NCBI GenBank assembly: GCA_002327305.1
Contig: DCUZ01000016.1
Location: 7,873-71,872 of the forward strand
Origin: Holophagales bacterium UBA2201
GTDB lineage: Bacteria > Acidobacteriota > Thermoanaerobaculia > UBA2201
Length of the DNA stretch: 64,000 nt
Direction: 5' to 3'
Part shown: positions 562 through 59,610 of the stretch, piece by piece
Position numbering within the stretch: position 1 is the first letter of the stretch
Layout of the letters: each line of letters starts with the position of its first letter
Translations under genes and position numbers: made by a program
Notes under the pieces: generated by a model
Told to the model about the DNA's origin: nothing
Database searches by the model: none
What the model saw: only the letters and a program-made list of their open reading frames with translations

Positions 562-2223
562 TCATGCTTGTGCAAGATGCCATAATTCAAGGATAAATGT
601 CCTAGTCAGATTGAAATCGGAGGGCCTGAGTCCTTTTCGAACTACTTCATTGCATTTCTTCTTAAAACTCCCATAATTCTCTTTTTCAATTACTCCAACA
701 CCATCAGCGTCACGAGCTACTGTCACTCCTAACTTCTCCGCTTCGGAGATCATTCGATCAGAATAATGTCGTTCGATGCCTCGAAAGGACCGTCCTAGTT
801 TAGGATTAAAAGCACTATCAGGCCAAACACAGACTTTGCAGGGATCATGCTTTGAGAATAGCTTTTCGAATTGTGCTTTCTTGGATGCAACATCCCAGTC
901 TAATAGTATGATCACTGGAGATGCAATATTGCGTGCACGCAATGCTGATTTATTCGACTTTAAATATGCGTAAAGTGCATCAACTCCCCCCGCATCTTCT
1001 TCTTCATCCATCTGCGCGAGATATTGGATTCTAATGCATCGCTGTGGCTTAATCAGTGCAAGGGCTTCATTCAAATATGCAGCATCGAATTTCCCTTCTA
1101 CTAATATCAGCGGATCAAGAGGGCAAAATAGAAGAGGATGTGTCCATCTTGAGACACCTGCCGAGGCTGAAAGATCAATGATAGCCCGTTTGTCTCGCTC
1201 TGGATTCAAATTTGTACCGCTTGTTCCTTTCTCTAAGAATGCAGCAGAATCTGCATGTTGAATTATCATATCAGAGTGCGTGGTAGCGAATATCTGCAGG
1301 CGACCACCTTGTTCAGAAGCAATTTCAGAAAGGTACGATGCTAGATGAGCTTCTAAAGATGTATGCAAAGACGACTCCGGCTCTTCTGCAAGCCAGACAG
1401 CAGCTTGTCGCCAGCCAAATTGTTGGAAATAGTCACGGTCAATCAGCGCCAATGTTTCAAACATAAGTAGGCTTTGGATACCAGACCCTTGAAATATATC
1501 GTCGACATCTATACCGAGGTCCTTAAGCCTGTATCCTAGCGCGAAAACAATGTTAGCCCAGTTGTCCGGAGTTTTTAATTGAACTCCCTCAATCCCTGGG
1601 CAGAGATCCTTTACATGCTTTGACATTGGCTCCAGTAATGTATTTGACGTTTCTTCAATTGCTCCAAACAATTCAGTCGGTCTTGGTGCTTTCTTTCCAA
1701 GGCGTCTGACAAGTGCGTCGCGAAGGGCGCTGTGCTGCTGTTGGATAACATCTATTGGAAGAACCCTGTTGGGCACATAACGGATTGGGATAAGTGATAA
1801 GAATTGTTCAATACGCTGAGAATTTTCATAGTCTAAAGGCTTAGTGCTATTATTAATATAATATTGGGTATTTATAGAAGCACGCTCCCATACCTTTGTG
1901 ATAGTGGTCCCGCTTGCAATAAGATGCTTTACCTCCTCCAGGCCCTTCCGAAAAGAGAAATTTCCCGGGATATTAAACTTGACGGAAACAGAAATCTGCT
2001 TCTTCCTATGCTTCTTTGCATGGGGGAGGTGAAAATCCCGGTCTATTTCAAGGGGAATGCCCGGCTCACAGTTATCTGTAAAATACGCATAGATCGCACG
2101 CAATACGTTCGACTTGCCTGAATTATTCAGCCCACATAAAACATTGAAGTTCCCGAATTCATTTAACTCCAGATCAGCAATTGATCGGAATCCTTTAATG
2201 CGTGCAGCGCTTATCAATTCCAT
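562..2223 (-). CDS. OLD-family ATP-dependent endonuclease (ABC ATPase + Toprim)
   Basis: N-terminal Walker A GLNNSGKSNVL, Walker B-like AVWLAEEPE and an ATTHS H-loop. The C-terminal Toprim region has LILVEGKFDAAYL and LLDWD motifs. The gene is AT-rich relative to the backbone. Confidence 0.75.
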   Translation of the reverse strand: MELISAARIKGFRSIADLELNEFGNFNVLCGLNNSGKSNVLRAIYAYFTDNCEPGIPLEIDRDFHLPHAKKHRKKQISVSVKFNIPGNFSFRKGLEEVKHLIASGTTITKVWERASINTQYYINNSTKPLDYENSQRIEQFLSLIPIRYVPNRVLPIDVIQQQHSALRDALVRRLGKKAPRPTELFGAIEETSNTLLEPMSKHVKDLCPGIEGVQLKTPDNWANIVFALGYRLKDLGIDVDDIFQGSGIQSLLMFETLALIDRDYFQQFGWRQAAVWLAEEPESSLHTSLEAHLASYLSEIASEQGGRLQIFATTHSDMIIQHADSAAFLEKGTSGTNLNPERDKRAIIDLSASAGVSRWTHPLLFCPLDPLILVEGKFDAAYLNEALALIKPQRCIRIQYLAQMDEEEDAGGVDALYAYLKSNKSALRARNIASPVIILLDWDVASKKAQFEKLFSKHDPCKVCVWPDSAFNPKLGRSFRGIERHYSDRMISEAEKLGVTVARDADGVGVIEKENYGSFKKKCNEVVRKGLRPSDFNLTRTFILELWHLAQA

Positions 2224-2348: not shown

Positions 2349-4508
2349 TTATTCATGGCTTTTCCCCTCAACTATATATATCTCTTCATCATTCAGACCA
2401 TAGAGCTCATAGACCAACTTATCGATCTGCCGGTCGGTTGCGTCTATTTGGCGCTGAAACAGATTCTTTTGCTCCTCCAACTTTGCGGCCGATATTTTCT
2501 TATGCAAGGTGAGCATAGTACCTACCAAATCTACTATCTGCCCATGCCGCACCTTATCATCATTATTTGTAAAATCAATGATTCGAACAGGCACTTTTTC
2601 CATGTACTGGTAGATCAAACGATATCGGTACTGCCCAGCACGAACGCCGAATGGAATGCTGATATTGCTAATTGCAAACCAGAAGAGTTTACTGTTAAGC
2701 AACCCCAGAAGATACGGATCATTTACCCCAATGCAATAAGCGGTATTGGATAGGTAATGCCCCTCCCTATCAAGGCAGAAGCGCGGCCCTTTGGCAATAT
2801 CTGGATAAATGATTTTTGCCTGATCAAAAACCTCCCAATAGGCCACATCATCTTGGATCTCATACCACTCATATCGGCCTGGTTTTCGTCCGCGCTTTGC
2901 GTTTTTATCGCGCTTGGGTGTCAGATCTTCTTTCCATTTTGAAAGATGCTCCATAATTGCAGGATAGTCCTTGATCCGTACACCACGCCGCGTGAAAATG
3001 AGCCATTGATCTGCTTCATGAAATACATATCGCCTGATATCTTCGCCGCCGAGCATCGGATGAATTAACTCCGCACTATTGGCATCCTTTCTAATGAGGT
3101 CAGTCCTTGTTTTGCTGTCGATAATGAAGGCTTCGTTAAGCCCTGTTTTAATTCCATAGCATATTTTATCTTTTGCAAAGTCGCAAAGAGGGATACCCGC
3201 CTTTGTTATCTTCTCGAATACATGGGCTTCATCATCGGATTTTAGCGACCAAGCATCTGGCTCCAATCTGACATGTGGGATAAAGTAATGATTGGCTTCG
3301 ACAAACGACTTTAAGTCTTGAATTTGCAGGGAAGGGATTCGGCTAACTTCCACGCTCTGGGGCTGTTCTGTTTTAACGAAAAGAGGAATGCATACATAAG
3401 TGTCTTTCGCGTTTTCAAACACGGCCAAGCCACCAAAGTCCACTATGCGAAGCACGCCTGCATGCTTTTTGATCTGACGACGTAGTGACTCACCATAGGT
3501 AGCCCGCAAGAAACTGCTTGAAACAATGATGCTGAAACGACCATTAGCGCGGAGGAGATCAAGGCCCCGTTCTATAAAATATGCGTAGAGGTCTGCCACC
3601 CCATGATAAGCTTCGTACTGCTTGGAGAAATAGTCTTTGAATTCTGATAGAGTTTCCTGTCTGACATAAGGCGGATTCCCGATCACCACATCAAACCCGC
3701 CGCCCTTCATGATCGCCGGGAACTCCCGATCCCAATCGAAGGCGTTGATCCGCTTCCGGTCCTCGTCCGAAAACATGTCCAGTTGCCTGCCCTGGTAGAA
3801 GTCCTGCCCGATGAGCGAATTCCCGCACTTTATATTGGCCGTGAGATCGGGGAGGACAAGCCCCCTCATATAAAGCATCATCTGCCCCTTGTCGAATCCC
3901 TTGTCCAATAGTTTAAGGTAGAGCGACATGATGGCCACTTCGGTGGCCTCGCGGTCGATGTCCACACCGAAGAGGTTGTTCTTGAGGATCCTCCCCTTCT
4001 TCTCCACGGTGAGGCGGACGTCGCCCTCGGCGGTCTGGTACCAGTCGCGGGCGTGGGCCTTGTCCTTTTTGTGCTCCGCGTACCACTCTTCATGGTATCG
4101 GATGAGCCGATCGAAGGCGCCCAGGAGGAAGGAGCCGGAACCGCACGCCGGATCGAGGATCTTGAGGGTTTCGATCTCCGCGGGGGTCTTGCCCTTGATC
4201 TTTTCGCCCACGGTGTGCTCGACTATGTAATCCACCACCCACTGCGGGGTGTAATAGACGCCGCCGGCGTGGCGGACCTCGGGCTTTTCCTCCACCTTGG
4301 CGCGGTGGCCCTCGGTCAACCAGATCTTGGAGCCCAGGAACCGCTCGTAGATGCGGCCCAGGATCTCCGGCTCGATGATGTCGAACTGGTAGGGGCTGGC
4401 TGGAGCCACCTCCCGCCCTGCCGAAGGATGAAGTATGAAGGAAAAATTATGAAGGAGGGGCAGAAGGGGGACAGGGGTGGGACGAGAAAAAGCTTCAAGA
4501 TAGGTCAT
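2349..4508 (-). CDS. Type IIG restriction-modification enzyme, C-terminal fragment (gamma-class N6-adenine MTase + target-recognition region); nuclease/helical N-terminal part missing
   Basis: The fragment aligns to residues ~310-994 of the intact paralog at 21694-24678 (YERFLG, AKVEEKPEV, YYTPQWVVDYIVEHTVG, LDPACGSGSFLLGAF, VIGNPPYVRQE). The first ~35 codons (4395-4508) show no homology to the paralog. It overlaps the 3' end of the four-helix-bundle gene by 14 nt. Confidence 0.7.
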   Translation of the reverse strand: MTYLEAFSRPTPVPLLPLLHNFSFILHPSAGREVAPASPYQFDIIEPEILGRIYERFLGSKIWLTEGHRAKVEEKPEVRHAGGVYYTPQWVVDYIVEHTVGEKIKGKTPAEIETLKILDPACGSGSFLLGAFDRLIRYHEEWYAEHKKDKAHARDWYQTAEGDVRLTVEKKGRILKNNLFGVDIDREATEVAIMSLYLKLLDKGFDKGQMMLYMRGLVLPDLTANIKCGNSLIGQDFYQGRQLDMFSDEDRKRINAFDWDREFPAIMKGGGFDVVIGNPPYVRQETLSEFKDYFSKQYEAYHGVADLYAYFIERGLDLLRANGRFSIIVSSSFLRATYGESLRRQIKKHAGVLRIVDFGGLAVFENAKDTYVCIPLFVKTEQPQSVEVSRIPSLQIQDLKSFVEANHYFIPHVRLEPDAWSLKSDDEAHVFEKITKAGIPLCDFAKDKICYGIKTGLNEAFIIDSKTRTDLIRKDANSAELIHPMLGGEDIRRYVFHEADQWLIFTRRGVRIKDYPAIMEHLSKWKEDLTPKRDKNAKRGRKPGRYEWYEIQDDVAYWEVFDQAKIIYPDIAKGPRFCLDREGHYLSNTAYCIGVNDPYLLGLLNSKLFWFAISNISIPFGVRAGQYRYRLIYQYMEKVPVRIIDFTNNDDKVRHGQIVDLVGTMLTLHKKISAAKLEEQKNLFQRQIDATDRQIDKLVYELYGLNDEEIYIVEGKSHE

Positions 4509-4875
4509 TTTGGGCCTTCACCTTCTTGATTATAGTAGCAAAGATGGCCGTAAGCTCATCGCATTCCTTCATTAGAGGCTTAAGTGTGTCTACGGGGTGG
4601 ATTCCGCTATCGCGTAAAAGTTCCAACCAATAGGCCGTTTCTTCAAGTTCTTTAAGGCTATCGCCCACCTTGGCCGAGAATTCGGCCTTGCTCCGGCTCC
4701 GATAGGCTTCGCGATAATTGGCTCCGATGGAAGTCCCTGATCGAAGGACCTGCTTTCCGATCATCCGCGCTTCAGGGCTTTTAGGTAGCCCGCTCGACAG
4801 GCGGATGATCTGGAGAGCGAAGCCCTTCGTCCTATCCCTCAAATCCTTCCCTTCGGCCCTGACTTCATCCCTCAT
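4495..4875 (-). CDS. four helix bundle protein (23S rRNA intervening-sequence protein family, TIGR02436-like)
   Basis: 126 aa with the family pattern DLRDRTKGFALQIIRL...LPKSPEARMIGKQVLRSGTSIGANYREAYRSRSKAEFSAKVGDSLKELEETAYWLELL. Its ATG overlaps the stop of the upstream fragment (ATGA). Confidence 0.8.
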   Translation of the reverse strand: MRDEVRAEGKDLRDRTKGFALQIIRLSSGLPKSPEARMIGKQVLRSGTSIGANYREAYRSRSKAEFSAKVGDSLKELEETAYWLELLRDSGIHPVDTLKPLMKECDELTAIFATIIKKVKAQNDLS

Positions 4876-5225
4876 ACTTCTGCCTTCATCCTTTTAGTGA
4901 GCGTGAAGACGGGCCGCTTGTCCGTGAGGGGCACATGGGGGGCCTTGGCCTCCACGAAGAACCGGGGCTTGCGCCGGACGCGGAAGGCGTAGTCGGGCTT
5001 TTTGATGGTGTCGCGTTCCTTCTGGCTATACTCGCGGTGGACGTCCCATTCGTCGCGGGGGAGGTGGGTTTGCTCGAAGTCCCAGCCGAGGGCCTGGAAG
5101 AGGGGGTCTATGAAGCGGTTTCTTGTTTCCGTTTCTTGGAAGGCTTTGGTTAGGTAGTGGGGTTCGTTTTTGTGGAAGTCTTCCACCTTTTGTTCGACGA
5201 GGGATTTGCCTTGGGAACGTTTCAT
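4872..5225 (-). pseudogene. N-terminal PD-(D/E)XK nuclease-domain fragment of a Type IIG R-M enzyme (truncated after the catalytic EAK motif)
   Basis: The 117-aa product is homologous to residues 1-~110 of the 994-aa paralog (FIDPLFQALGWDF, PDYAFRV..RFFVEAKAP versus FLDPFFKALGWDV, PDYCFRIGGVRKFFVEAKKP). It diverges and stops right after the EAK motif. It is in the same frame class as the C-terminal fragment. Confidence 0.65.
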
Positions 5226-5619
5226 GCCGCCACCCTACCAGCGGGCGACCCACCGGGTCGCCCCTACCAATACCCGCCGGCCACCTGCCTGGAGGGATTG
5301 CATCCCTCGCCTGCTTTCCTGCCGGCAAACCATCTGAACGCCATTACTGCTGATCGATACGGCCACTAATACCCCCTAAACCCTTTGAATGGCCCGAAAC
5401 ACTGGATAGGACTATACTCCCTTGAATGGGGCAGGGTCAAGGGCATGGCCGGGCTCCCGCGGCCGCTCAGTCCGGAAGGAATCGTTCAGATCTTTGTCTC
5501 CCGGGGCGTTGCCCCAAGCAGACGGTAAACCGGGCCTTGGGCCATCGAATAGTCAACGGCGGACAACGACCTGATTCCTTCAATGATATTGCAAAGGCAT
5601 GCGCTTTTACCAAGCGTGG

Positions 5620-10588: not shown

Positions 10589-10696
10589 CGGGAAGGCGGG
10601 AAGGCGGGAAGGCCGGAAGGCCCCCCATCTGCCGACTGCCAACTGGAAACTGCCCACTGCCCACTGCCATCTGCCGACTGGAAACTGCCGACTGAA
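10589..10696. repeat. short tandem repeats: (GGGAAGGC)x4 followed by ~9 copies of the heptamer CTGCCNA
   Basis: Read directly in the pcm-apt intergenic region: gggaaggcgggaaggcgggaaggccggaaggcc, then ctgccga ctgccaa ctggaaa ctgccca ctgccca ctgccat ctgccga ctggaaa ctgccga. Confidence 0.75.
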
Positions 10697-15662: not shown

Positions 15663-15737
15663 CTACGGTCTACGGTCTACGGTCTACGGTCTACGGTCTA
15701 CGGTCTACGGTCTACGGTCTACGGTCTACGGTCTACT
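15663..15737. repeat. heptanucleotide tandem repeat (ACGGTCT)x~10
   Basis: ctacggtctacggtctacggtct... read directly in the gap between two convergent genes. Confidence 0.85.
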
Positions 15738-21455: not shown

Positions 21456-21621
21456 TCAGCGGTTCAGCGCCGGGAACGATGCCAGCGGGGGGGCGCCCCA
21501 GATGCGGACGGACGCGGGGATCCCGTTGACGACGCAGGTCCACGAACCGTCCGTGCCCAACCCCGACATCTCCGCCATCCACACCGCCCCCCAGCCGTCC
21601 CGCGACGGGGCCTCGATGCGG
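21456..21621 (-). pseudogene. displaced native 3' end (alternative C-terminus) of the secreted-protein gene now at 27580-28080
   Basis: Reading the minus strand through repeat copy A gives ...MAEMSGLGTDGSWTCVVNGIPASVRIWGAPPLASFPALNR*. This is homologous to the C-terminus of the 27580-28080 product (...DYTWACTVDGRHSSIRVWGTPPLSSFPALNQAK*). Confidence 0.55.
21549..21621. repeat. 73-bp direct repeat, copy A (att-like boundary)
   Basis: 72/73 nt identical to 27680-27752 (tccgtgccca[a/g]ccccgacatctccgccatccacaccgccccccagccgtcccgcgacggggcctcgatgcgga). Confidence 0.85.
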
Positions 21622-21693
21622 AGTGCCATCCGGTCCCGGAGCCGGTCGCCGGATGTCTGCCGTTTGGGGGAGCTTTCCTAACGTCGCTTCGGA

Positions 21694-24678
21694 GTGTACA
21701 ATAAGCGCATGGGCATTGAAACAATCAAAGGTCTCGTGGACCGGTTTGAAACCCATCGGGATTCCTATACCTCCGGCTCCTACAACGAAACCCAGCTCCG
21801 CCGCGAGTTCCTGGACCCCTTCTTCAAGGCCCTCGGTTGGGATGTCTTCAACGAAAAGGGCTACGACGAGGCCTACAAAGAGGTCATCCACGAGGATTCC
21901 CTCAAGATCGGCGAATCCACCAAGGCCCCCGACTACTGCTTCCGCATCGGCGGCGTGCGCAAGTTTTTCGTGGAGGCCAAGAAGCCCTCCGTCAACGTCA
22001 AAGAGGATGTCTCCCCCGCCTACCAATTGCGCCGCTATGCCTGGAACGCCGACCTCCCCCTTTCCATCCTCACCGATTTCGAGGAGTTCGCCGTCTACGA
22101 TTGCCGTGAAAAGCCGGCTCTGACCGACAAGGCCTCCAGGGCCCGCGTCCTCTACCTCCCCTTCCACGAGTACCCGGAGCGCTGGGAGGAACTGGCCGCG
22201 CTTTTCTCCCCCGAGGCCGTCCTCAAGGGCTCCTTCGACCGCTACGCCCGATCGGCCAAGGCCAAGCGGGGCACCGCCGGGGTGGACGACGCCTTCCTAG
22301 AGGACATCGAGCGGTGGCGGGAACTGCTGGCCAGGGGCTTCGCCCTGCGCAACCCGGCCCTCTCCACCCATACCCTCAACTTCGCCGTTCAGCGCACCAT
22401 TGACCGCATCATCTTCCTGCGCATCGCCGAGGACCGCGGCCTGGAGCCCTACGGCACGCTTCTGGGGCAAATCAACGGCGAAGGCGTCTATCCCCGCCTC
22501 GTCGAGCTCTTCCGCAAGGCCGACCAGAAATACAACTCCGGCCTCTTCCACTTCCAGAATGAGAAGGGCCAGCACGAACGGCCCGACGACCTCACCCCCC
22601 GCCTCCACCTCGACGACAAGCCGCTGAAGGCGATCATCCAAGGGCTCTACTACCCCGAGAGCCCCTACGAGTTCTCCGTCATGCCCGCCGACATCCTGGG
22701 GCAGGTCTATGAGCGGTTCCTGGGAAAAGTCATCCGCCTCACCGCCGGCCATCAGGCCAAGGTGGAGGAGAAGCCGGAGGTGAAAAAGGCCGGCGGCGTA
22801 TTTTATACTCCCACCTTCATCGTGGACTACATCGTCCGGCATACGGTGGGACGGCTCCTGGAGGGCAAGACCCCCAAACAGATTTCAAGCCTGCGCATCC
22901 TGGACCCCGCCTGCGGCTCCGGCTCCTTCCTTCTGGGAGCCTACCAGTGCCTTCTCGACTGGCACCGCGACTGGTACCTTGCCGACGGCGCCGCGATACA
23001 CCCCAAGGAGATTTACCGCGCCCACACCGGGCAGTGGCGCCTCACCACCCCGGAGCGCAAGCGCATCCTCCTCAACTCCATCCACGGCGTGGACCTGGAC
23101 CCGCAGGCTGTGGAGGTCACCAAGCTCTCCCTCCTGCTGAAAGTCCTGGAGGGGGAGACGGAGCAGACTCTCCAGCACCAGATGGACTTCATGCGCGCCC
23201 GCGCCCTGCCCGACTTGGGGCGTAACATCCAGTGGGGCAACTCCCTCATCGGGGGCGACTACACCCACGGCCGGCAGTTGGACTTCGTGCCGGAGGAGGA
23301 GCGGTACCGCGTCAACCCCTTTGATTGGGCCCGCCAGTTCTCCGCCGTCATGGAGGCGGGGGGCTTCGACGCCGTCATCGGCAATCCCCCTTATGTGCGG
23401 CAGGAGACCCTGGGCGACGACTTCAAAGCGTATGCCGGCACGCACTTCAAGACCTTCGCCGGCACCGCCGACCTCTATGTCTATTTCATCGAGCGGGGCA
23501 TCTCGCTCCTGAAGGATGGCGGGATCTTCTCCTACATCGTCGCCAACAAGTGGCTGAGGGCCGCCTATGGGAAGCCTCTCCGGCAGTGGCTCAAGGACAA
23601 GGCCGTCGAGGAGATCGTGGACTTCGGCGACCTCCCCGTCTTCCAGGGCGCCACCACCTACCCCTGCATCCTGCGCGTCGCCAAGAGCAAGGCCAAGAAG
23701 AGTTTCAGCGCCGCCAAAGTACCGGACTTGGAGTTCACCGATCTGGAGGAGAAGGTCAAGGACCTGCGATACACCGTAGAGAAGACGACCCTCTCTCCAG
23801 ACGGCTGGTCGTTGGCCGACGCCAAGGTTTCGGCCCTCCTGGGGAAGATCAAGGCCCAAGGAATCCCTCTGAAAGAGTATGTCAAGGGAAAGATCTATCG
23901 GGGCGTTCTGACCGGCTTCAACGAGGCCTTTGTTATTGACGAGGCGACAAAGAAACGGCTCATCCAAGAAGACCCCAAAAGCGCCGAACTCATCAAGCCC
24001 TTCCTCCAGGGGCGCGACATCAAGCGGTATCAGCCGCCCACCCCGACGCGCTATCTCATCTTTACGCGCCGGGGAGTGGACATCAAACGCTATCCCGCCA
24101 TCGAGCGGCATCTGCTCCAATATAAAGAACTTCTAATGCCGAAGCCGAAAAACTGGAAGGGGAAAGAGTGGAAGGGGCGCAAGCCGGGGGCGTATCAGTG
24201 GTACGAGATTCAAGACAGCACCGATTATTACTCGGAATTTGAGAAGCCTAAGATTCTCTGGCCTGAAATAGCAGGCGATGCACGCTTCACCTTTGACCCC
24301 GCAGGCTGCTATGCCAACAACAAAGTGTTTCTAATTCCCTCTGAGGATAAATACCTTCTTGGCTTGTTGAACTCTTCGTTGCTAAAGACCTTCATACACT
24401 CCGTATGCACTGATCTCCAGGGCAGTAGTTTCAACTTCAGTGCTGTCTTTGTGCAAAAGACGCCTATCGTTGTGCCTGATCTTAAGGACAAAACACGGGT
24501 GAAGGCCAAAGAAGAGATCCTCGCCCTGGTGGACCAGCTACTTAAGATGAATGCCGACCTGGCTACCTGCACAAGCAATCAGCAGCGGGTGCTATGCCAG
24601 CGATATATTCTTGCCCACGAGAAGCAGATAAATAATGCTGTCTGTTCAATATACCGAATCGATCATGATGATTGCTAG
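21694..24678 (+). CDS. Type IIG restriction-modification enzyme (PD-(D/E)XK nuclease + gamma-class N6-adenine MTase + TRD), intact
   Basis: 994 aa. N-terminal PDYCFRIGGVRKFFVEAKKP (PD..EAK), SAM motif LDPACGSGSFLLGAY and catalytic VIGNPPYVRQE. The size and order match MmeI-like Type IIG/IIL enzymes. An alternative start is at 21709. Confidence 0.8.
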   Translation: MYNKRMGIETIKGLVDRFETHRDSYTSGSYNETQLRREFLDPFFKALGWDVFNEKGYDEAYKEVIHEDSLKIGESTKAPDYCFRIGGVRKFFVEAKKPSVNVKEDVSPAYQLRRYAWNADLPLSILTDFEEFAVYDCREKPALTDKASRARVLYLPFHEYPERWEELAALFSPEAVLKGSFDRYARSAKAKRGTAGVDDAFLEDIERWRELLARGFALRNPALSTHTLNFAVQRTIDRIIFLRIAEDRGLEPYGTLLGQINGEGVYPRLVELFRKADQKYNSGLFHFQNEKGQHERPDDLTPRLHLDDKPLKAIIQGLYYPESPYEFSVMPADILGQVYERFLGKVIRLTAGHQAKVEEKPEVKKAGGVFYTPTFIVDYIVRHTVGRLLEGKTPKQISSLRILDPACGSGSFLLGAYQCLLDWHRDWYLADGAAIHPKEIYRAHTGQWRLTTPERKRILLNSIHGVDLDPQAVEVTKLSLLLKVLEGETEQTLQHQMDFMRARALPDLGRNIQWGNSLIGGDYTHGRQLDFVPEEERYRVNPFDWARQFSAVMEAGGFDAVIGNPPYVRQETLGDDFKAYAGTHFKTFAGTADLYVYFIERGISLLKDGGIFSYIVANKWLRAAYGKPLRQWLKDKAVEEIVDFGDLPVFQGATTYPCILRVAKSKAKKSFSAAKVPDLEFTDLEEKVKDLRYTVEKTTLSPDGWSLADAKVSALLGKIKAQGIPLKEYVKGKIYRGVLTGFNEAFVIDEATKKRLIQEDPKSAELIKPFLQGRDIKRYQPPTPTRYLIFTRRGVDIKRYPAIERHLLQYKELLMPKPKNWKGKEWKGRKPGAYQWYEIQDSTDYYSEFEKPKILWPEIAGDARFTFDPAGCYANNKVFLIPSEDKYLLGLLNSSLLKTFIHSVCTDLQGSSFNFSAVFVQKTPIVVPDLKDKTRVKAKEEILALVDQLLKMNADLATCTSNQQRVLCQRYILAHEKQINNAVCSIYRIDHDDC

Positions 24679-26002
24679 CGCCGCAAACCCAGGCGTCTTC
24701 AACATACGCAGCGAATTATCAGATAAAAGCATTAGAATTCTATCAAACCAAATTGATCAAGTATTTTCGAAGAAGGGATTGGCCTTTCCGAGAAGTGCAG
24801 AAGAATTGAAAAAGTATGCTTATAATCCTTACATTAAAATAGATGGCAATATTTTTCATTTAAGTGCAATCGGATCGCAAGCGCTTGAGCGCATATTGGC
24901 CATATTTCAAGGCATTAAACCGCTGAGCGATTTACTTAGCCCAAATGATTATTACCGGATCATCCTTGGCGAGATCGAGAATTGGATCAATCGCAAATTG
25001 GTACCAAGTCCTGATGTATTCATTGATTCGGTAGAAAAGCATATATTGACCTATATAGATTGGTATCAGTTTCTATGCAAAATAGATGGGTTAATCTTGC
25101 AAGGTGTTGATCAATTGCCAATAGGAGGAAAAATAATAAGTAAGTACACACCAGAAATTCTCGATAACATAATGCAAAAATCGGATGATTTTATAAAGAT
25201 CATCAATACTGAACATAATAATTCTATTGTTATTTCAGGGAAAGAAAGAGGATCGATTGATTCAGCTTCGAGAAAATTCTGCTTCAATGCAGAATTGTGC
25301 CTATCGCTGTTGCGATTGTATCACTGTATCGCAAGAGGAGGTGATATACTGCGCCCCAAAATTAGGTTAGTTAGCGAGTGTCATGGCGCTTATGGATCAG
25401 CTATTGTATTTGGATGGGATGAGAAAACAAAGAGCGAAACTTGGATAAGACATTTTAAGGAAGATTTAAGCCTTGTAATAGACAATGAAATGTTAACTTA
25501 CTTCAGAAAGCAATGTTATTGGGATCAGTTAGCGGGCCTTATCTTAAAAGAAGACAGAAGCGAAGTAGAGGAAGCGATAGTTAAATCACTTTATTGGTTT
25601 GGCGAAGCGCATAAGGAACGCACAATTGTTACAAAATGGATTCTATTGTGGACTTGCATTGAATGCTATTTTTCTATTGATGATGAGCGGATAACAGAAA
25701 ATAATGCAATGGGCGTTGCAACTTTCCTTAAATTTGGTGGATATTCATTTGACGAATATAATGATTATCGCAAATTAAAGAGCAAGATCAGGAAATATTA
25801 TGAACTTAGAAGTCTTGCTCTGCACAGAGCATCTTATCAACATATTGAGTCTGAAGCTCTCGAGACATTTGCTCAAATGGTTGCCTGGGTGATCATTATA
25901 ATGGTCTCATTGTCATTGAGAGGTTATAACAATTTAGTCCAGATAAAGAAAGAAGCAGAAAGATTAGATAGCCTGCACTATTCGGATCAGAAAAATGGAT
26001 AA
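24635..26002 (+). CDS. hypothetical protein (AT-rich; C-terminal Rx4H HEPN-like motif), candidate defence-associated partner of the Type IIG gene
   Basis: 455 aa. Its start overlaps the R-M gene stop (alternative ATGs at 24665/24668). The C-terminal helical region contains YELRSLALHRASYQH (Rx4H). No other recognisable motif. Confidence 0.5.
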   Translation: MLSVQYTESIMMIASAANPGVFNIRSELSDKSIRILSNQIDQVFSKKGLAFPRSAEELKKYAYNPYIKIDGNIFHLSAIGSQALERILAIFQGIKPLSDLLSPNDYYRIILGEIENWINRKLVPSPDVFIDSVEKHILTYIDWYQFLCKIDGLILQGVDQLPIGGKIISKYTPEILDNIMQKSDDFIKIINTEHNNSIVISGKERGSIDSASRKFCFNAELCLSLLRLYHCIARGGDILRPKIRLVSECHGAYGSAIVFGWDEKTKSETWIRHFKEDLSLVIDNEMLTYFRKQCYWDQLAGLILKEDRSEVEEAIVKSLYWFGEAHKERTIVTKWILLWTCIECYFSIDDERITENNAMGVATFLKFGGYSFDEYNDYRKLKSKIRKYYELRSLALHRASYQHIESEALETFAQMVAWVIIIMVSLSLRGYNNLVQIKKEAERLDSLHYSDQKNG

Positions 26003-27579: not shown

Positions 27580-28080
27580 TTATTTTGCCTGATTCAATGC
27601 CGGAAATGAAGAAAGCGGCGGCGTGCCCCATACCCGGATTGAGCTATGCCTGCCATCAACGGTGCAAGCCCATGTATAATCCGTGCCCAGCCCCGACATC
27701 TCCGCCATCCACACCGCCCCCCAGCCGTCCCGCGACGGGGCCTCGATGCGGAACTCCAGGGGGTCCTTCAACGCGTGGCCGGGGACGCGGAGGAACCGGA
27801 CCTCGTCGGCCGGCAGGTCGCCGAGCTTCCCGCCGTTCAGGATGATCGCGCCGCCGGTCAGGGACCACGCCCGCAGGCGCATCTCCTGCCGCCCGGCACG
27901 GGCGAAGGCACGCACGAAAACGACGGTTTCCGGCTCCGCCGCCGGCAATTTCCCGTCCCGCCAGATCACTTGGCCTCCCGGTTCCGCGGCGCGGAGCTTC
28001 TCCGAGTGGAAGCGGTGGACGGATTGCCACAAAATACAAATGGCGAAAAGGGACAGGCCGGCAATCAATATCCGTTTCAT
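27580..28080 (-). CDS. secreted hypothetical protein (host gene carrying island-supplied 3' end)
   Basis: 166 aa with signal/TM MKRILIAGLSLFAICILW. Its last ~60 codons include repeat copy B and a lower-GC tail. Confidence 0.5.
   Translation of the reverse strand: MKRILIAGLSLFAICILWQSVHRFHSEKLRAAEPGGQVIWRDGKLPAAEPETVVFVRAFARAGRQEMRLRAWSLTGGAIILNGGKLGDLPADEVRFLRVPGHALKDPLEFRIEAPSRDGWGAVWMAEMSGLGTDYTWACTVDGRHSSIRVWGTPPLSSFPALNQAK
27680..27752. repeat. 73-bp direct repeat, copy B (att-like boundary, within coding sequence)
   Basis: See copy A. Here it encodes LEFRIEAPSRDGWGAVWMAEMSGLGT of the 27580-28080 product. Confidence 0.85.
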
Positions 28081-28085
28081 GGATA

Positions 28086-28470
28086 GTTTCGAGTTTCGAG
28101 TTTCGAGTTTCGAGTTGAGAAGCGGGAAACGCGGTTTCGAGTCTCGAGTTTAGAGTTTCGAGTTGTCAAACGGGAAACGCAGTTTCGAGTTTCGAGTTTC
28201 GAGTTTCGAGTTGAGAAGCGGGAAACGCGGTTTCGAAGTTCGAGTTCATAGTTTCGTGTTGAGAAGCAGGATGTAGAGAGAGTTGTGCTTTTAACTTTCA
28301 ACTCGCAACTCGCAACTTTGCTCTGGTTTTGTCTTTAATTCGGAACTCGAAACTCGAAACTCGCAACTTTGCTCTGGTTTTGTCTTTAATTCGAAACTCG
28401 CAACTCGCAACTCGCAACTTTGCTCTGGTTTTGTCTTTAATTCGAAACTCGCAACTCGCAACTCGCAACT
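28086..28470. repeat. composite tandem-repeat array: 4 units of ~48 bp built from (TTTCGAG)n + TTGAGAAGCGGGAAACGCGG, then 3-4 units of ~51 bp built from (AACTCGC/AACTCGA)n + AACTTTGCTCTGGTTTTGTCTTTAATTCG
   Basis: Read directly. It occupies the whole intergenic/promoter region between the ABC-2 permease stop and the start of the 27580-28080 gene. Confidence 0.85.
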
Positions 28471-28475
28471 GCATT

Positions 28476-56674: not shown

Positions 56675-57649
56675 CTACGCTTCTCCCACCCCCGTCCGGA
56701 CCATCCATCCCACCGCCCCCGCCAGCGCCGCCAGTTGGAGTACGAGCAAGAGCGGGTTGAAGGAGACGTGGGGCAGGAGGTGGAAGGTGCGGTAGGCCAT
56801 CAGGCCGGCCAGGATCACGCCGTCGAAGAAGAGGACCGCCCCGGCGATCCGCCGCAGGGGGTTGGCCAGGAGGGAAAAGAACGGGACGGCGAAAAGGAGG
56901 ACCACCGCGCCGTAGAACAGGGCGTTGCCCCAGGGGAGGTGGAACCGGGCCTGGAGGTAGTGCACCTCCTCGGGGATGTTGGCGTACCAGATGGTGAGGT
57001 ACTGGGCGAAGAAGAGGCCACCCCAGAAGAGCGCGAACCCGAAGGTGAGGGTGGCGGTGTCCTTGAGCGTGGCGGGGGGGCAGGCGCCGCGTCGGCTCAG
57101 GAAGAAACAGATGATGCCCGCCAGCGCCAGGCCGGCATAGAGGGCCTCGACCATGTAGAGGGCGGGGAACATGGTGGAGATCCAGGGATAGTCGAAGCTC
57201 ATCACCTGGTCCACCGCCATCACCGAGTGGGAGACCACGAAACTGAAAATGTAGGCCACGGCCCAGGCCCGGCGCCGTTCCGAACCCTTCCGCATGGCGC
57301 GGATGAACATCATGGCGATCACAAATGAGACGATGAACAGGATGTGGGAACGGAAGGCGACCCCCGCTGAATTCAGCCAGGCCGTGGGCTGGTGACTCCA
57401 AGCGTAGAGGGCGATGTCCGGATCGGCCAGGCAGGGGATGAAGAACAGGGGCCACATCCCCATCAACGGTTTGCGCAGGGGGGCGATCCATTGCGCGTTG
57501 GAGAGTTCGGCGGCCGCCACGAGGAGGATGCTCCCCTGCGCCAGCGCCGCGGCGAGGAGAAAGGTGAGCAGTTTAGAGGCGGAGGCGTCCAGATAATAGA
57601 ATAGCCCATAGACCAGAAGGGCCAGGATCCACGGTCCGTTCTTCTTCAT
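56675..57649 (-). CDS. polytopic membrane protein, possibly an accessory subunit of the adjacent ACIII-like complex
   Basis: 324 aa with ~8 TM helices and no CxxCH. It overlaps the ActD-like gene. Confidence 0.4.
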   Translation of the reverse strand: MKKNGPWILALLVYGLFYYLDASASKLLTFLLAAALAQGSILLVAAAELSNAQWIAPLRKPLMGMWPLFFIPCLADPDIALYAWSHQPTAWLNSAGVAFRSHILFIVSFVIAMMFIRAMRKGSERRRAWAVAYIFSFVVSHSVMAVDQVMSFDYPWISTMFPALYMVEALYAGLALAGIICFFLSRRGACPPATLKDTATLTFGFALFWGGLFFAQYLTIWYANIPEEVHYLQARFHLPWGNALFYGAVVLLFAVPFFSLLANPLRRIAGAVLFFDGVILAGLMAYRTFHLLPHVSFNPLLLVLQLAALAGAVGWMVRTGVGEA

Positions 57650-58077
57650 GCCTGCTCCTTCACGAAGATGGCGTAGGCGTTCCCGGTCTCCTCGGGGGCG
57701 AGGATGCTCCGGATGTCCGGGAACCGGTTCAAATGGAAGAACCCCAGGATGGAGGCGACGGCCCCCAGGAGGATGGTCAATTCGAAGGCGATGATCATGA
57801 AGGGCGGGAGGGAGATAAGGGGCTTGCCGCTGGTGATCAGCGGCCAGGCCAGGACGGCGTAAGTGGTGAGGCCGAACCCCATCGCCGCCCCCAGGACGGC
57901 CCCCGTGCCGGTGAACCAGCCCAGGGGCGATGGCGGCGTGCGGAGAATGTGAAACGCCTCGTGGACCGGGACGGGGGTCCGCACCTCGATCGAGGATGTC
58001 GGAACTCCGTCGTCCACGAGTTCCTTCAGCTTGGCCAGGAATTCGGTTTTATCGTCGCAGAGATATTTCTGGGTCAT
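57646..58077 (-). CDS. DUF3341/ActD-like membrane subunit of quinol:cytochrome c oxidoreductase
   Basis: Soluble N-terminal domain plus two C-terminal TM helices with PLISLPPFMIIAFELTILLGA, typical of ActD. Confidence 0.7.
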   Translation of the reverse strand: MTQKYLCDDKTEFLAKLKELVDDGVPTSSIEVRTPVPVHEAFHILRTPPSPLGWFTGTGAVLGAAMGFGLTTYAVLAWPLITSGKPLISLPPFMIIAFELTILLGAVASILGFFHLNRFPDIRSILAPEETGNAYAIFVKEQA

Positions 58078-58094
58078 GATCCCTCCTCGGCGGC

Positions 58095-58320
58095 AAAGGA
58101 AGAAGTAAGAATTAAGAAGTATGAAAAAATGAAACGAAGGCTTAATCCTACTCTGTACGTCTCTTCCTTCATAATTCTTACTTCTGCCTTCTGCCTTCTC
58201 ATTCGTGCTCCTCGACTGGAAAGGATGAATTAAAAATTAAGAAGTATGAATAAACAAGACAGAACGCCGCCTCCTTCTTAATTCTTACTTCTTCCTTCTG
58301 CCTTTTCATTGCTGCTCCTC
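58095..58320. repeat. tandem ~110-bp duplication of the actC 3' end plus AT-rich palindromic motif (TTCATAMTTCTTAATT)
   Basis: ...gagcacgaatgagaaggcagaaggcagaagtaagaattatgaag... and ...gagcagcaatgaaaaggcagaaggaagaagtaagaattaagaag... are direct repeats. The motif gaattaaaaattaagaagtatgaataa also matches 351-376 (24/26, opposite strand). Confidence 0.6.
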
Positions 58321-59610
58321 CTTGATCTCCGTGATCGCGAGGACGGGCAGGGCCTTGACGAAGAGGAGGAAGATGGTGAAGAAGAGGCCGAACGAGCCCA
58401 CGGTGATCCCCACCGCGATCCACGAGAAGGCCGGCTTGCCCCACGCGTAGGGCTCGAAGTCGTGCGCCAGAGAGGTGACGATGATGATGAAGCGCTCCAG
58501 CCACATCCCCACATTGACGAAGAGGGAGAGGACGAAGAGGTAGGCGATGCTGCGCCGCAGTTTCTTCACGAACAGGGACAGCGGCAGGAGGCAGTTGCAG
58601 AAGACCATCAGATAGTAGGCCCACTTGAAGTCGCCGAAGAGGCGGTAGGAGAAGTGGGCGGTCTCGAAGACGTTGCCGCTGTACCACGCCAGGGCGATCT
58701 CCATCACATAGGCGTAGGCCACGATCAGCGAGGTGAAGAGGAGGGTCTTGGCCAGGGCCTCGAAGTGGTCGATGGTGATGTACCGTTCCAGCCGCAGGAT
58801 CTTCCGCATCGGGATGACCAGCGTCATCACCATGGCGCAGCCGGAGAAGATGGCCCCGGCGACGAAATAGGGGGCGAAAATGGTGGTGTGCCAGCCGGGG
58901 ATGACGCTCATGGCGAAGTCCCACGAGACGACGGAGTGGACGCTGATGACGAGGGGGGTGGCGAAGGAGGCCAGGAAGATGTAGAGTTTTTCCCAATGCC
59001 TCCACTGCGTGTGCGTCCCCGTCCACCCCAGCGAGAGGATGCGGTAGGCCCAGTGACGGATGCCGGTGGTGCGGCGGCGGGCAATGGCCAGGTCGGGCAC
59101 CATGCCGACGTAGAAGAAGAGGAAGGAAACGGTGAAGTAGGTGGAGACGGCGAAGACGTCCCAGATCAGGGGCGAGCGGAAGTTGACCCACAGGAGGCGC
59201 TGGTTGGGGTAGGGCAATAACCAGTAGAAGAGCCAGACGCGCCCCAGGTGGATGAGGGGGAAGAGGCCGGCCGTCATCACCGCGATGACGGTCATCGCCT
59301 CGGCGGAGCGGTTGAAGGCCTTGCGGAACCGGGCGCGGAAGAGGAAAAGGACGGCGGAAATGAGGGTCCCCGAGTGGGCGATGCCGACCCAGAAGACGAA
59401 GTCGGTGATGTACATGTACCAACCCACCGGGTTGTTCTTCCCCGACAGGTGCATCCCGCCCCAGATCTGGAGCCCCCAGCAGGCCATCCCCACGGCGAAC
59501 ATCAGGGCGGTGAAGGCCAGGGCGGCCCAGTAGACCTTTCGCGGGCTCTGCATCCCCCCAAGGACGTCCACCTCCACCCGGTCGTGGAAGGAGAGGGGCT
59601 TATCGCTCAT
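58306..59610 (-). CDS. NrfD/PsrC-family quinol-interacting membrane subunit (ActC-like)
   Basis: 434 aa with 10 TM helices and the NrfD-family pattern. The start overlaps the actB stop (ATGA). Confidence 0.85.
   Translation of the reverse strand: MSDKPLSFHDRVEVDVLGGMQSPRKVYWAALAFTALMFAVGMACWGLQIWGGMHLSGKNNPVGWYMYITDFVFWVGIAHSGTLISAVLFLFRARFRKAFNRSAEAMTVIAVMTAGLFPLIHLGRVWLFYWLLPYPNQRLLWVNFRSPLIWDVFAVSTYFTVSFLFFYVGMVPDLAIARRRTTGIRHWAYRILSLGWTGTHTQWRHWEKLYIFLASFATPLVISVHSVVSWDFAMSVIPGWHTTIFAPYFVAGAIFSGCAMVMTLVIPMRKILRLERYITIDHFEALAKTLLFTSLIVAYAYVMEIALAWYSGNVFETAHFSYRLFGDFKWAYYLMVFCNCLLPLSLFVKKLRRSIAYLFVLSLFVNVGMWLERFIIIVTSLAHDFEPYAWGKPAFSWIAVGITVGSFGLFFTIFLLFVKALPVLAITEIKEEQQ

What the first reader, a model, noticed from the sequence alone, without database searches (positions are those of the whole stretch)
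2349..5225. Second Type IIG R-M gene split into nuclease and MTase/TRD fragments with a 'four helix bundle protein' (23S IVS protein family) gene sitting between them in a tightly overlapping arrangement
4872-5225(-) encodes only the PD-(D/E)XK N-terminal ~110 aa (through the catalytic EAK). 2349-4508(-) encodes the region homologous to residues ~310-994 of the intact paralog. About 200 aa of linker are missing. Exactly in the gap lies a 126-aa four-helix-bundle protein gene. Its ATG overlaps the stop of the N fragment (ATGA), and its 3' end overlaps the start of the C fragment by 14 nt. The two R-M fragments are in the same frame class (codon starts congruent to 2 mod 3). Members of this four-helix-bundle family are known for sitting inside 23S rRNA intervening sequences and are suspected to be mobile. 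Finding one embedded in, and apparently disrupting, an R-M gene is unusual. The alternative is a deliberately split three-gene arrangement (standalone nuclease domain, 4HB protein, standalone MTase).
Basis: partly seen in the sequence, partly recalled or inferred. Interest (0 to 1): 0.65.

Follow-up and report, generated by a model that had tools for sequence, protein, structure and literature searches.

The report
rRNA-IVS-type gene cassette inside restriction gene
A small hairpin-bounded gene cassette, of the kind known from intervening sequences in 23S rRNA genes, has replaced the middle of a restriction-modification gene, leaving a dead nuclease stub and a possibly still active methylase; the same kind of cassette sits in operons of many bacterial phyla.

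Summary
4872-5225(-) holds the first 107 codons of a Type IIG nuclease domain. 4495-4875(-) is a clear TIGR02436/PF05635 four-helix-bundle (4HB) gene. 2349-4508(-) is the methyltransferase plus target-recognition half. About 200 codons are missing between the two R-M pieces.

Comparative data support insertion with deletion, not a designed three-gene system:
- Cassette-free relatives (93% nt identity) diverge exactly at 4905|4904 and continue into the nuclease domain.
- One relative (L012) shares both junctions but has since lost its methylase.
- None of 80 other relatives has a 4HB gene nearby.

The insert (~4424-4904) is a discrete cassette. The ORF is bracketed by inverted repeats built from tandem heptamers. 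The upstream arm supplies stop codons in all three frames, a ribosome-binding site and the ATG, which explains the ATGA overlap. This anatomy matches the Coxiella 23S rRNA intervening sequence.

Across 80 GTDB genomes the same heptamer arms flank 4HB genes, mostly in housekeeping operons and roughly one in eight in defence loci. The window also holds ORF-less hairpin copies.

The methylase ORF is itself a mosaic, with a recombination point near 3800-3850. The finding is ordinary as R-M decay. It is interesting as an IVS-type element caught in a protein-coding gene.

The parts
5411..5440 (-). Promoter-like site (TTGACC-18-TATAGT) about 185 nt upstream of the N-fragment ATG; a candidate promoter for all three ORFs
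   Evidence: Consensus scan only. No terminator-like site was found on the minus strand between here and 2349. Weak evidence.
4905..5225 (-). Native codons 1-107 of a Type IIG nuclease domain (PD-(D/E)XK through D78...E91-A-K93). GC3 is 0.79.
   Evidence: HSDR_N hit and PDLC03604 positions 3-111. 90-94% nt identical to cassette-free L005 and L101 up to 4905. 54-69% aa identical to intact ~1000-aa relatives.
4872..5225 (-). N-fragment ORF as called (117 aa). The last 10 codons (TLTKRMKAEV) and the stop codon come from the cassette's upstream arm.
4424..4904 (-). IVS-type 4HB cassette (~481 nt). The left junction is at 4905|4904. The right junction lies between 4424 and 4403.
   Evidence: Breakpoint against L005. 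Homology to intact relatives resumes at C-fragment residue ~36, which is window 4403. The RNA fold pairs the two ends (MFE -183.6 kcal/mol, z = -4.33). GC is 0.515 against 0.59-0.62 in the flanks.
4849..4893 (-). Upstream (5') arm of the cassette. It is purine-rich, made of degenerate tandem heptamers (GAAGKMW), holds an SD-like AAGGA and the ATG, and has stop codons in all three frames.
   Evidence: Inverted repeat I1/I2. TRF reports period 7 over 4863-4893. Three frames carry a stop.
4495..4875 (-). 4HB protein gene (126 aa, TIGR02436 / PF05635), intact.
   Evidence: PDB 2RLD at E = 8.7e-18. All 37 invariant columns of a 36-sequence alignment that includes the window sequence are kept. dN/dS is 0.30 against L012.
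4424..4468 (-). Downstream (3') arm of the cassette. It is pyrimidine-rich and heptamer-based, and is complementary to the 5' arm (45 nt at 71%; core 26 nt at 81%).
   Evidence: TRF reports period 7/14 over 4423-4456.
2349..4508 (-). C-fragment ORF (719 aa): 35 non-homologous leader codons, then a gamma-class N6-adenine methyltransferase (DPACGSG and NPPY motifs) and a TaqI_C-type target-recognition domain. The start codon and SD (GAAGG, 6-nt spacer) lie in the 3' end of the 4HB gene.
   Evidence: The first 59 codons evolve neutrally against L012 (dN/dS 0.84).
3830..4403 (-). Native part of the methyltransferase, from the same gene lineage as the N fragment. GC3 is 0.885 over C-fragment codons 36-200 and falls to 0.61 over codons 201-380.
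   Evidence: 64-75% identical (codons 36-200) to relatives whose N-termini are 54-69% identical to the N fragment, against 49-57% to the P0002 group. Sliding-window identity.
2349..3830 (-). Recombined-in part: methyltransferase C-part plus target-recognition domain of a different (P0002-like) lineage. GC3 is 0.45-0.6 and the low GC continues into the downstream gene.
   Evidence: 63-72% identical to the P0002 group against 21-56% to the N lineage. The crossover lies at C-fragment residue ~220-235. GC profile.
562..2223 (-). Context: an OLD-family-like ATPase (AAA_15 plus a Toprim-like C-terminus), low GC, directly downstream. It probably arrived with the swapped segment.
   Evidence: GC3 is 0.38. 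In L001 it is followed by an Mrr_cat/NA-iREase1 gene.
21694..24678 (+). Intact Type IIG paralog, used as the reference.
58078..58305 (-). Two tandem ORF-less hairpin modules whose arms are of the same type as the cassette arms (including AATTATGAAGGA). They fill the spacer between two minus-strand genes.
   Evidence: Repeat families D6-D8. Sequence. RNA fold z = -6.66.

Best explanation
A native Type IIG restriction-modification gene was hit by an IVS-type cassette, and codons ~108-307 were lost. Those codons encode the rest of the PD-(D/E)XK nuclease fold and the helical connector. The cassette is a 126-aa four-helix-bundle gene enclosed by inverted repeats built from tandem heptamers.

The cassette is built to sit inside a transcript. 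Its purine-rich 5' arm carries stop codons in all three frames, an SD-like sequence and the ATG. An incoming ORF is therefore terminated and the 4HB gene is translated by coupling, which produces the ATGA overlap. Its 3' arm pairs with the 5' arm into a long stem that encloses the ORF. In the 23S rRNA versions of this element that stem is the RNase III substrate.

Inferred consequences:
- Restriction activity is gone.
- The methyltransferase/TRD half remains an intact ORF that starts from an ATG and SD inside the cassette's 3' end. It probably acts as an orphan m6A methylase.
- That half was later remodelled by homologous recombination near 3800-3850, which brought in a foreign target-recognition domain and the low-GC downstream genes.

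Shown: the anatomy, the junctions, the lineage assignments and the family-wide cassette design. Inferred: RNase III processing, translational coupling, methylase activity, and how the cassette got there.
For: 1. Family membership and the missing ~200 model positions.
2. Left junction at nucleotide resolution. L005 and L101 are 93-94% identical up to 4905, then continue with ...VFQAKKYAFSSHGKVPVIVITDFQEFRVF, the rest of the nuclease domain.
3. L012 shares both junctions (92% identity over 5262-4332), but its methylase is replaced by Dcm plus Vsr.
4. None of 80 loci encoding N-fragment relatives carries a 4HB gene, and many of those loci hold intact 940-1025-aa genes.
5. The N fragment and C-fragment residues 36-~225 belong to the same lineage and share high GC3 (0.79 and 0.885). 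The remainder is P0002-like with GC3 0.45-0.6.
6. The foreign DNA is bounded by the inverted repeat.
7. In 77-80 4HB loci from GTDB genomes: 56 of 80 have flanking inverted repeats beating all 30 shuffles; period-7 autocorrelation is 0.46-0.49 against 0.28 in control flanks; heptamer arrays are 24-fold enriched next to 4HB genes; three-frame stops occur in 34 of 77 loci against 9 of 77 shuffled; cognate arms beat at least 23 of 25 non-cognate arms in 42 of 77 loci.
8. The Coxiella 23S IVS has a 28-bp terminal stem, an SD, tandem heptamers before the S23p ATG and RNase III cuts in the stem (PMC4990558).
9. ORF-less modules with the same type of arm occur in this window.
Against: - The right junction is known only to within ~20 nt and only at protein level.
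- No relative provides a complete empty site with both flanks.
- No target-site duplication exists, and no recent identical copies were seen. Active transposition is therefore not shown. A one-step replacement by recombination would look the same.
- The N-terminal stub evolves with dN/dS ~0.05-0.14. That is unexpected for a dead remnant.
- The window's arms are somewhat degenerate. Complementarity is 81% in the core, and 7 of 25 non-cognate arms pair as well as the cognate one.
- Neighbour annotation in the survey rests on a crude ORF caller.
Confidence: 0.78

Rival explanations
1. A functional, deliberately split three-gene system: a stand-alone nuclease stub, a 4HB accessory protein and a stand-alone methylase/TRD working together.
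For: All three ORFs are intact and tightly coupled. dN/dS of the stub is ~0.09-0.12 and of the 4HB gene 0.30 against L012. Two-ORF splits of this enzyme family exist elsewhere: 302+713 aa and 270+693 aa.
Against: The stub ends right after the E-x-K motif. It lacks the remaining strand and helix of the fold and the whole connector. L012 keeps the stub and the 4HB gene but has lost the methylase. None of 80 relatives has a 4HB gene. The natural two-ORF splits retain all residues and have no 4HB gene. The leader of the C ORF evolves neutrally.
Confidence: 0.06
2. The locus is a chimera of two different R-M genes joined at a 4HB cassette. On this view the cassette acted as a portable recombination site, and there was no insertion into one gene.
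For: The C fragment is 60-65% identical to the P0002 group, whose N-termini are only 33-41% identical to the N fragment. The locus clearly recombines, as the window mosaic and L012 show.
Against: Region-wise analysis places the crossover ~570 nt downstream of the cassette. The sequence on both sides of the cassette belongs to the same lineage and has the same GC3.
Confidence: 0.06
3. The N-terminal stub is itself a retained, functional small protein, with or without the 4HB protein. The R-M gene's decay is secondary to that.
For: Six members of one 90%-identity cluster are all truncated (117-208 aa), at four or more different points. Codons 11-107 show dN/dS 0.05-0.14 with dS 0.19-0.36. The stubs occur in different flanking contexts.
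Against: The star-like dS pattern conflicts with the shared cassette. N-region dS is 0.28 against cassette dS 0.15 for window versus L012. That points to recombination among alleles, so much of the divergence may predate the truncations. P0274 may be part of an intact allele. The fold is incomplete. No link to the 4HB gene exists, because cassette-free stubs are equally conserved.
Confidence: 0.1

Closest known systems
S23p-encoding intervening sequence of Coxiella burnetii 23S rRNA (also Leptospira and Brucella IVS ORFs)
   Same: The ORF is of the same protein family. The size is similar (~481 nt against 428-444 nt). Terminal inverted repeats form a stem around the ORF (26-45 nt against 28 bp). 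An SD-like sequence and tandem heptamers lie directly before the ATG (PMC4990558; window).
   Different: The host site is a protein-coding R-M gene within an mRNA, not helix 9, 25 or 45 of 23S rRNA. The insertion destroys the host gene, whereas the rRNA version is removed from the host RNA without loss of function. RNase III processing is not shown here.
ORF-less 23S rRNA IVSs (Salmonella, Yersinia and others; ~100-nt stem-loops)
   Same: The ORF-less hairpin modules at 58078-58305 look like the short form of the same element.
   Different: They lie in an intergenic spacer of an mRNA operon and occur in tandem. The relation to rRNA IVSs is by analogy only.
Type IIG R-M enzymes of the Eco57I/MmeI/BpuSI kind, and their frequent decay to orphan methylases
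   Same: The domain order and motifs match, and the MTase plus TaqI_C TRD are complete. Loss of the nuclease with retention of the methylase is the usual direction of decay (established knowledge).
   Different: The cause here is a gene cassette rather than a frameshift, as seen in L098, L099, L008 and L010.
Avd, the accessory protein of diversity-generating retroelements
   Same: It is a homologous four-helix-bundle family (PMC10053308).
   Different: No template/variable repeat pair was found in the window. PDB Avd was not hit by sequence search at E <= 0.01; the nearest solved structure is 2RLD. A reverse transcriptase was not looked for.
Cyanobacterial STRR heptanucleotide repeats, and REP/MITE-type intergenic palindromes (recalled from memory, not checked)
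   Same: Tandem heptamers in intergenic, transcribed DNA. One survey locus uses AATGACC, a cyclic permutation of the complement of STRR2. Heptamer arrays are frequent in this window.
   Different: Here the heptamers form paired, locus-specific inverted arms around a conserved gene. No link between STRR and 4HB genes was found in the searchable literature.

Membership tests
TIGR02436 / PF05635 four-helix-bundle (23S rRNA IVS protein) | HMM score above the curated cutoff | tested here: met
   TIGR02436 95.8 bits (cutoff 24) and PF05635 75.7 bits (cutoff 33.8).
TIGR02436 / PF05635 four-helix-bundle (23S rRNA IVS protein) | Length ~115-130 aa and the conserved core residues | tested here: met
   126 aa. 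37 columns are invariant across the 36 aligned sequences, which include the window sequence, so the window keeps them by construction of that count.
TIGR02436 / PF05635 four-helix-bundle (23S rRNA IVS protein) | Four-helix-bundle fold, pentameric ring | not tested
   Only sequence homology to PDB 2RLD (E = 8.7e-18). No structure was predicted.
S23p-type rRNA intervening sequence element | ORF enclosed by terminal inverted repeats that form a stem | tested here: met
   Arms 4849-4893 and 4424-4468. The MFE and centroid folds pair them, z = -4.33.
S23p-type rRNA intervening sequence element | SD plus tandem heptamers immediately upstream of the ATG | tested here: met
   TRF period 7 over 4863-4893. 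The feature is family-wide and is described for Coxiella.
S23p-type rRNA intervening sequence element | Located in 23S (or 16S) rRNA helices | tested here: not met
   It lies inside a Type IIG gene. There is no rRNA or any Rfam hit in the window.
S23p-type rRNA intervening sequence element | Excised from the transcript by RNase III | not testable with these tools
   Needs RNA-end mapping.
Type IIG restriction-modification enzyme (PADLOC PDLC03604 type) | Complete N-terminal PD-(D/E)XK nuclease domain and helical connector on the same polypeptide as the MTase | tested here: not met
   Model positions 112-310 are absent, and the remainder is split over two ORFs.
Type IIG restriction-modification enzyme (PADLOC PDLC03604 type) | Gamma-class N6A MTase motifs and a TaqI_C/MmeI-type TRD | tested here: met
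   Eco57I 148.8 bits, N6_Mtase, TaqI_C. DPACGSG and NPPY are present in the sequence.
DGR accessory protein Avd | Adjacent reverse transcriptase and a template/variable repeat pair | tested here: not met
   No suitable direct repeat pair near the gene, and the neighbours are R-M fragments. The reverse transcriptase was not searched for explicitly.
Transposable element / MITE | Terminal inverted repeats | tested here: met
Transposable element / MITE | Target-site duplication, and near-identical copies elsewhere | tested here: not met
   Only a 4-nt CTTC is shared at the two ends. There is no second 4HB gene in the window. The ORF-less modules are only 68-85% similar in their arms. The arm sequence differs between loci, which argues against a sequence-specific transposase.

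The most novel reading that the evidence does not exclude
The 4HB gene together with its heptamer arms is a distinct, phylum-spanning class of selfish 'transcript-resident' cassette. The 23S rRNA intervening sequences would be only the best-known landing site. On this reading:
- The cassettes enter transcribed DNA (operon spacers, rRNA, occasionally ORFs).
- They terminate and restart translation through their 5' arm, and are cut out of the RNA at the stem.
- They leave ORF-less hairpin derivatives.
- The Avd-like 4HB protein acts on the heptamer repeats, in their maintenance, spread or processing.

The R-M locus in this window would then be a rare filled site with empty-site relatives, which makes spread of the element directly testable.
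Probability: 0.3. Interest if true: 0.8.

Novelty: new variant of a known kind. Interest (0 to 1): 0.58.

Why it matters
IVS elements and their S23p/4HB ORFs have been known since the early 1990s, yet their origin, mobility and function remain unexplained (PMC4990558). This locus contributes three things:
- A filled site versus cassette-free site comparison at nucleotide resolution, in a non-rRNA gene.
- Evidence that the hairpin-plus-heptamer design is conserved around 4HB genes in many phyla and in ordinary operons.
- ORF-less derivatives in the same genome.

Together these turn 'are IVSs mobile, and what is the ORF for?' into concrete experiments.

For R-M biology the locus is a clear example of defence-gene turnover. 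It shows nuclease loss by cassette insertion, a swap of the target-recognition domain by recombination, and in a sister lineage replacement by Dcm/Vsr.

Tried and rejected
1. Chimera joined at the cassette. This was suggested by N/C identity discordance. It was rejected after region-wise identity and GC3 placed the crossover ~570 nt downstream of the cassette.
2. Shorter homologs of the C fragment (P0028 and P0067, 693-713 aa) as further 4HB-split genes. They are plain two-ORF splits with all residues present and no 4HB gene.
3. Target-site duplication or direct repeats at the junctions. Nothing beyond CTTC was found.
4. A 4HB gene specific to R-M loci. The neighbour survey of 74+74 ORFs shows mostly housekeeping genes. 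Defence genes are roughly one in eight, from a partial tally (ResIII in 6 of 74 upstream neighbours, plus Eco57I, BrxL, PglZ and DUF1156 cases).
5. PADLOC has no model for the 4HB protein. Rfam gives no hit in the window.
6. Phage carriage. Only 5 weak hits (42-51% identity) in 2.9 million viral contigs.
7. Literature. Searches for TIGR02436, PF05635, S23 or IVS protein with R-M terms, and for heptamer/STRR with four-helix bundle, found no description of such cassettes outside rRNA.
8. A DGR context. No template/variable repeat pair was found.
9. The first N-fragment homolog search returned only short proteins, which suggested a stand-alone family. The metagenome scan then found many intact full-length relatives.
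Full report
**Observation.** They are 4872-5225 (117 aa), 4495-4875 (126 aa) and 2349-4508 (719 aa). The overlaps are a 4-nt ATGA and 14 nt.

- The middle ORF is a clear member of the four-helix-bundle / 23S rRNA IVS protein family. It scores 95.8 bits against TIGR02436 (cutoff 24) and 75.7 bits against PF05635 (cutoff 33.8). Its nearest solved structure is 2RLD.
- The outer ORFs map to one 1011-position Type IIG model, PADLOC PDLC03604. The N fragment covers positions 3-111 and the C fragment positions 311-1003.
- The intact paralog at 21694-24678 covers the whole model.
- The arrangement recurs in at least four independent assemblies.

**Insertion or designed split?** Four lines of comparison point to insertion.

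1. Three relatives carry the N-terminal region without the cassette. L005 and L101 are 93-94% nt identical to the window; L181 belongs to the same 90%-identity protein cluster. In the two compared at DNA level (L005, L101), identity stops at 4905|4904. Their sequence continues in frame with the rest of the PD-(D/E)XK domain...VFQAKKYAFSSHGKVPVIVITDFQEF....
2. L012 shares the window's junctions on both sides, at 92% nt identity over 5262-4332. About 60 codons into the C fragment it carries a ~160-nt insert. After a further 36-nt match (window 4326-4291) a Dcm-Vsr module replaces the methylase. The methylase is therefore dispensable in the only other lineage that has the three-ORF junction.
3. 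A metagenome scan found 80 loci encoding relatives of the N fragment (46-88% identity). Many hold intact 940-1025-aa genes. None has a 4HB gene within 5 kb. Homology to the C fragment starts at its residue ~36 in nearly every locus with a hit.
4. Shorter homologs of the C fragment elsewhere are ordinary two-ORF splits with nothing missing and no 4HB gene.

**One gene or two?** At first the fragments looked discordant.

- The best full-length homologs of the C fragment (P0002 group, 60-65% identity) have N-termini only 33-41% identical to the N fragment.
- The relatives of the N fragment have C-parts only ~40% identical overall.

Splitting the C fragment into regions resolves this.

- The N fragment (54-69%) and C-fragment residues 36 to ~225 (64-75%) both belong to the same lineage and share high GC3 (0.79 and 0.885).
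- From residue ~226 onward the C fragment is P0002-like (63-72%, against 21-56% for the native lineage). GC3 falls to 0.45-0.6 and stays low in the downstream OLD-like gene (0.38).

The cassette therefore interrupts a single native gene and replaces codons ~108-307. A separate recombination near 3800-3850 swapped in a foreign MTase C-part, target-recognition domain and downstream genes. A syntenic but frameshift-riddled copy next to surE in L008 supports the view that this is an old resident gene.

**Anatomy of the insert.** The foreign DNA runs from 4904 to between 4424 and 4403 (~481-501 nt).

- An imperfect inverted repeat brackets the ORF. The arms are 4849-4893 and 4424-4468 (45 nt at 71% complementarity; core 26 nt at 81%).
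- Both arms are degenerate tandem heptamers.
- The RNA fold pairs them in the MFE and centroid structures (z = -4.33).
- The 5' arm is purine-rich. It contains an SD-like AAGGA, the ATG and stop codons in all three frames. This is why the truncated nuclease ORF ends in ATGA on the 4HB start codon.
- The C ORF starts at an ATG with a GAAGG SD inside the 3' end of the 4HB gene. Its first 35 codons are not homologous to anything in the enzyme family and evolve neutrally (dN/dS 0.84 over the first 59 codons).

**The same design elsewhere.** I collected 80 loci with close relatives of this 4HB protein from GTDB species genomes. Most are Verrucomicrobiota; Nitrospirota, Acidobacteriota, Chloroflexota, Planctomycetota and others also appear. 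Identity to the window protein is 49-72%.

- In 56 of 80 loci the flanking inverted repeat beats all 30 shuffles.
- The flanks show a period-7 autocorrelation of 0.46-0.49. The distal ends of neighbouring genes show 0.28, and random positions 0.25.
- Heptamer arrays are 24-fold denser next to 4HB genes than elsewhere in the same loci.
- The heptamer unit differs from locus to locus (GAATGCA, GAATGAA, GGATGAA, AAGTAAG, AATGACC, TTTGTAA and others), yet the two arms of a locus stay complementary. Cognate arms beat at least 23 of 25 non-cognate arms in 42 of 77 loci. This favours selection on the hairpin itself over recognition by a sequence-specific enzyme.
- Three-frame stops in the 5' arm occur in 34 of 77 loci, against 9 of 77 after shuffling.
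- Neighbours are mostly co-oriented (61 of 74 upstream, 49 of 74 downstream), closely spaced and functionally diverse. Examples are formyltransferase, the two transketolase subunits, sbcD|sbcC and tRNA synthetases.
- Defence genes are a minority, roughly one in eight. Examples are hsdR, an SNF2-PLD helicase next to an Eco57I-type methylase, BrxC|PglZ and a DUF1156 methylase.
- The two nearest relatives of the window's protein with usable context lie just upstream of an MmeI-family Type IIG gene.
- The subfamily is almost absent from viral contigs.

**Link to known biology.** The Coxiella burnetii 23S rRNA IVS is 428-444 nt. It has a 28-bp terminal stem and an SD followed by tandem heptamers (GACAGAT) immediately before the S23p ATG. 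RNase III cuts it inside the stem. Its origin is discussed as a possible mobile element (PMC4990558).

The window's cassette has every one of these sequence features except the rRNA location. I found no paper describing such cassettes in mRNA operons or R-M genes. The family is called 'functionally uncharacterized' in a recent preprint and is homologous to DGR Avd.

**ORF-less relatives in the same window.** The spacer 58078-58305, between two minus-strand genes, holds two tandem hairpin modules. Their arms resemble the cassette arms, down to the AATTATGAAGGA start region, but only a short loop lies between them. The RNA fold gives z = -6.66. Further heptamer arrays lie at 28081-28475 (nested arrays of AGTTTCG and its complement), 10625-10694, 15663-15736, 59625-59706 and 347-376.

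**Mechanism (inferred).**
- Restriction is lost. The stub ends just after the E-x-K motif and lacks the rest of the fold and the connector.
- The methylase/TRD ORF is complete, with the DPACGSG and NPPY motifs and a TaqI_C domain. It was even remodelled by recombination without being broken. I therefore consider an orphan m6A methylase likely, but unproven.
- The three ORFs are probably co-transcribed from a promoter-like site at 5440-5411. No minus-strand terminator-like site lies between them.
- By analogy with rRNA IVSs, the cassette stem would be cleaved by RNase III and would separate the transcript.
- How the cassette arrived is not resolved. It could be true insertion followed by deletion, or a one-step recombinational replacement. 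There is no target-site duplication and no identical second copy.

**Unexplained.** The N-terminal stub is unusually well kept.
- Six members of one 90%-identity cluster are all truncated, at four or more different points: after residue 107, ~152, ~158 and ~193.
- Pairwise dN/dS over codons 11-107 is 0.05-0.14 (p ~1e-6), with dS of 0.19-0.36.
- The dS pattern is star-like. The window and L012 are no closer to each other in this region (dS 0.28) than to cassette-free alleles, although their cassettes differ by a dS of only 0.15.

Either alleles recombine frequently and the truncations are young, or the stub has a function of its own. I cannot tell which.

**Limits.**
- The right junction is defined only at protein level.
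- Survey neighbours come from a simple longest-ORF caller and family counts.
- All functional statements are inferences from sequence.

**Verdict.** As a case of R-M decay the locus is ordinary. As an IVS-type 4HB cassette caught inside a protein-coding gene, it is a new variant of a known kind and moderately interesting. What makes it so are the cassette-free relatives, the conserved heptamer-hairpin design across phyla and the ORF-less derivatives nearby.

Noticed in passing
window 58078-58305 (-): Two tandem ORF-less hairpin modules fill the spacer between genes 58306..59610 and 57646..58077. Each has a purine-rich heptamer arm, a short loop and a pyrimidine-rich arm. The arms resemble the 4HB cassette arms, including the ATG region. 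The RNA fold gives z = -6.66.
   Followed up: partly
window 28081-28475: A 395-nt intergenic block between two minus-strand genes is made of three 48-nt units rich in AGTTTCG heptamers, followed by three 51-nt units rich in the complementary CGAAACT/CGCAACT heptamers. Together they form a large nested palindrome. The heptamer type differs from the 4HB arms and contains no ATG.
   Followed up: no
window 10625-10694, 15663-15736, 59625-59706, 347-376: Further tandem heptamer arrays: CCAACTG x10; CTACGGT x10.6 at 100% match; AGTTTCG x4.7 followed by GAACTCC x5.7; TTCTTAA x4.3. The genome seems rich in STRR-like heptamer repeats.
   Followed up: no
window 4905-5225 and loci L005, L101, L181, L012: N-terminal stubs of this nuclease domain occur with at least four different truncation points in a 90%-identity cluster and in different genomic contexts. 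They nevertheless show dN/dS of 0.05-0.14. Selection on the stub or frequent allelic recombination could explain this; it is unresolved.
   Followed up: partly
window 562-2223 (-), continuing below 485: A low-GC OLD-family-like gene (AAA_15 ATPase with a Toprim-like C-terminus; PADLOC hits to AriA, GajA and Old) lies directly downstream of the methylase. In L001 it is followed by a 472-aa Mrr_cat/NA-iREase1 protein. This may be a second defence module that arrived with the swapped target-recognition domain.
   Followed up: partly
window 24635-26002 (+): A 455-aa ORF overlaps the 3' end of the intact Type IIG paralog by 44 nt. It has no Pfam, NCBIfam or PADLOC hit and may be an uncharacterised partner gene.
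   Followed up: no
window 21463-21652 and 27593-27782: A 190-nt direct repeat (74% identity), 6.1 kb apart, brackets the intact paralog and its downstream genes. These may be the boundaries of an inserted island.
   Followed up: no
P0017 and P0046 (homologs of the C fragment): In some Nitrospira-type relatives the N-terminal nuclease domain of this MTase-TRD family is replaced by a Fic (AMPylation) domain, in proteins of 1006-1080 aa.
   Followed up: no
L013 5554-9993 (also L014-L017): From the same metagenome samples as the window: a 97-aa GIY-YIG protein, a 4HB cassette 73% identical to the window's, and an MmeI-family Type IIG gene that starts right after the 3' arm. An extra copy of the 5' arm follows the 4HB stop codon.
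   Followed up: partly
L005 5623-5745: The first ~14 codons of the nuclease gene are duplicated in tandem ~120 nt upstream of the real start. The upstream copy is closer to the window's N-terminus than the downstream copy is.
   Followed up: no
L098 1946-4997 and L099 2992-5988: Relatives of the enzyme are split into two adjacent ORFs (302+713 aa and 270+693 aa) at the nuclease-connector/methylase boundary, with no sequence missing. These may be frameshift pseudogenes or genuine two-subunit forms.
   Followed up: no
L012 ~964-1127: A ~160-nt insert with internal hairpin potential lies inside the methylase remnant, just before the Dcm-Vsr replacement.
   Followed up: no
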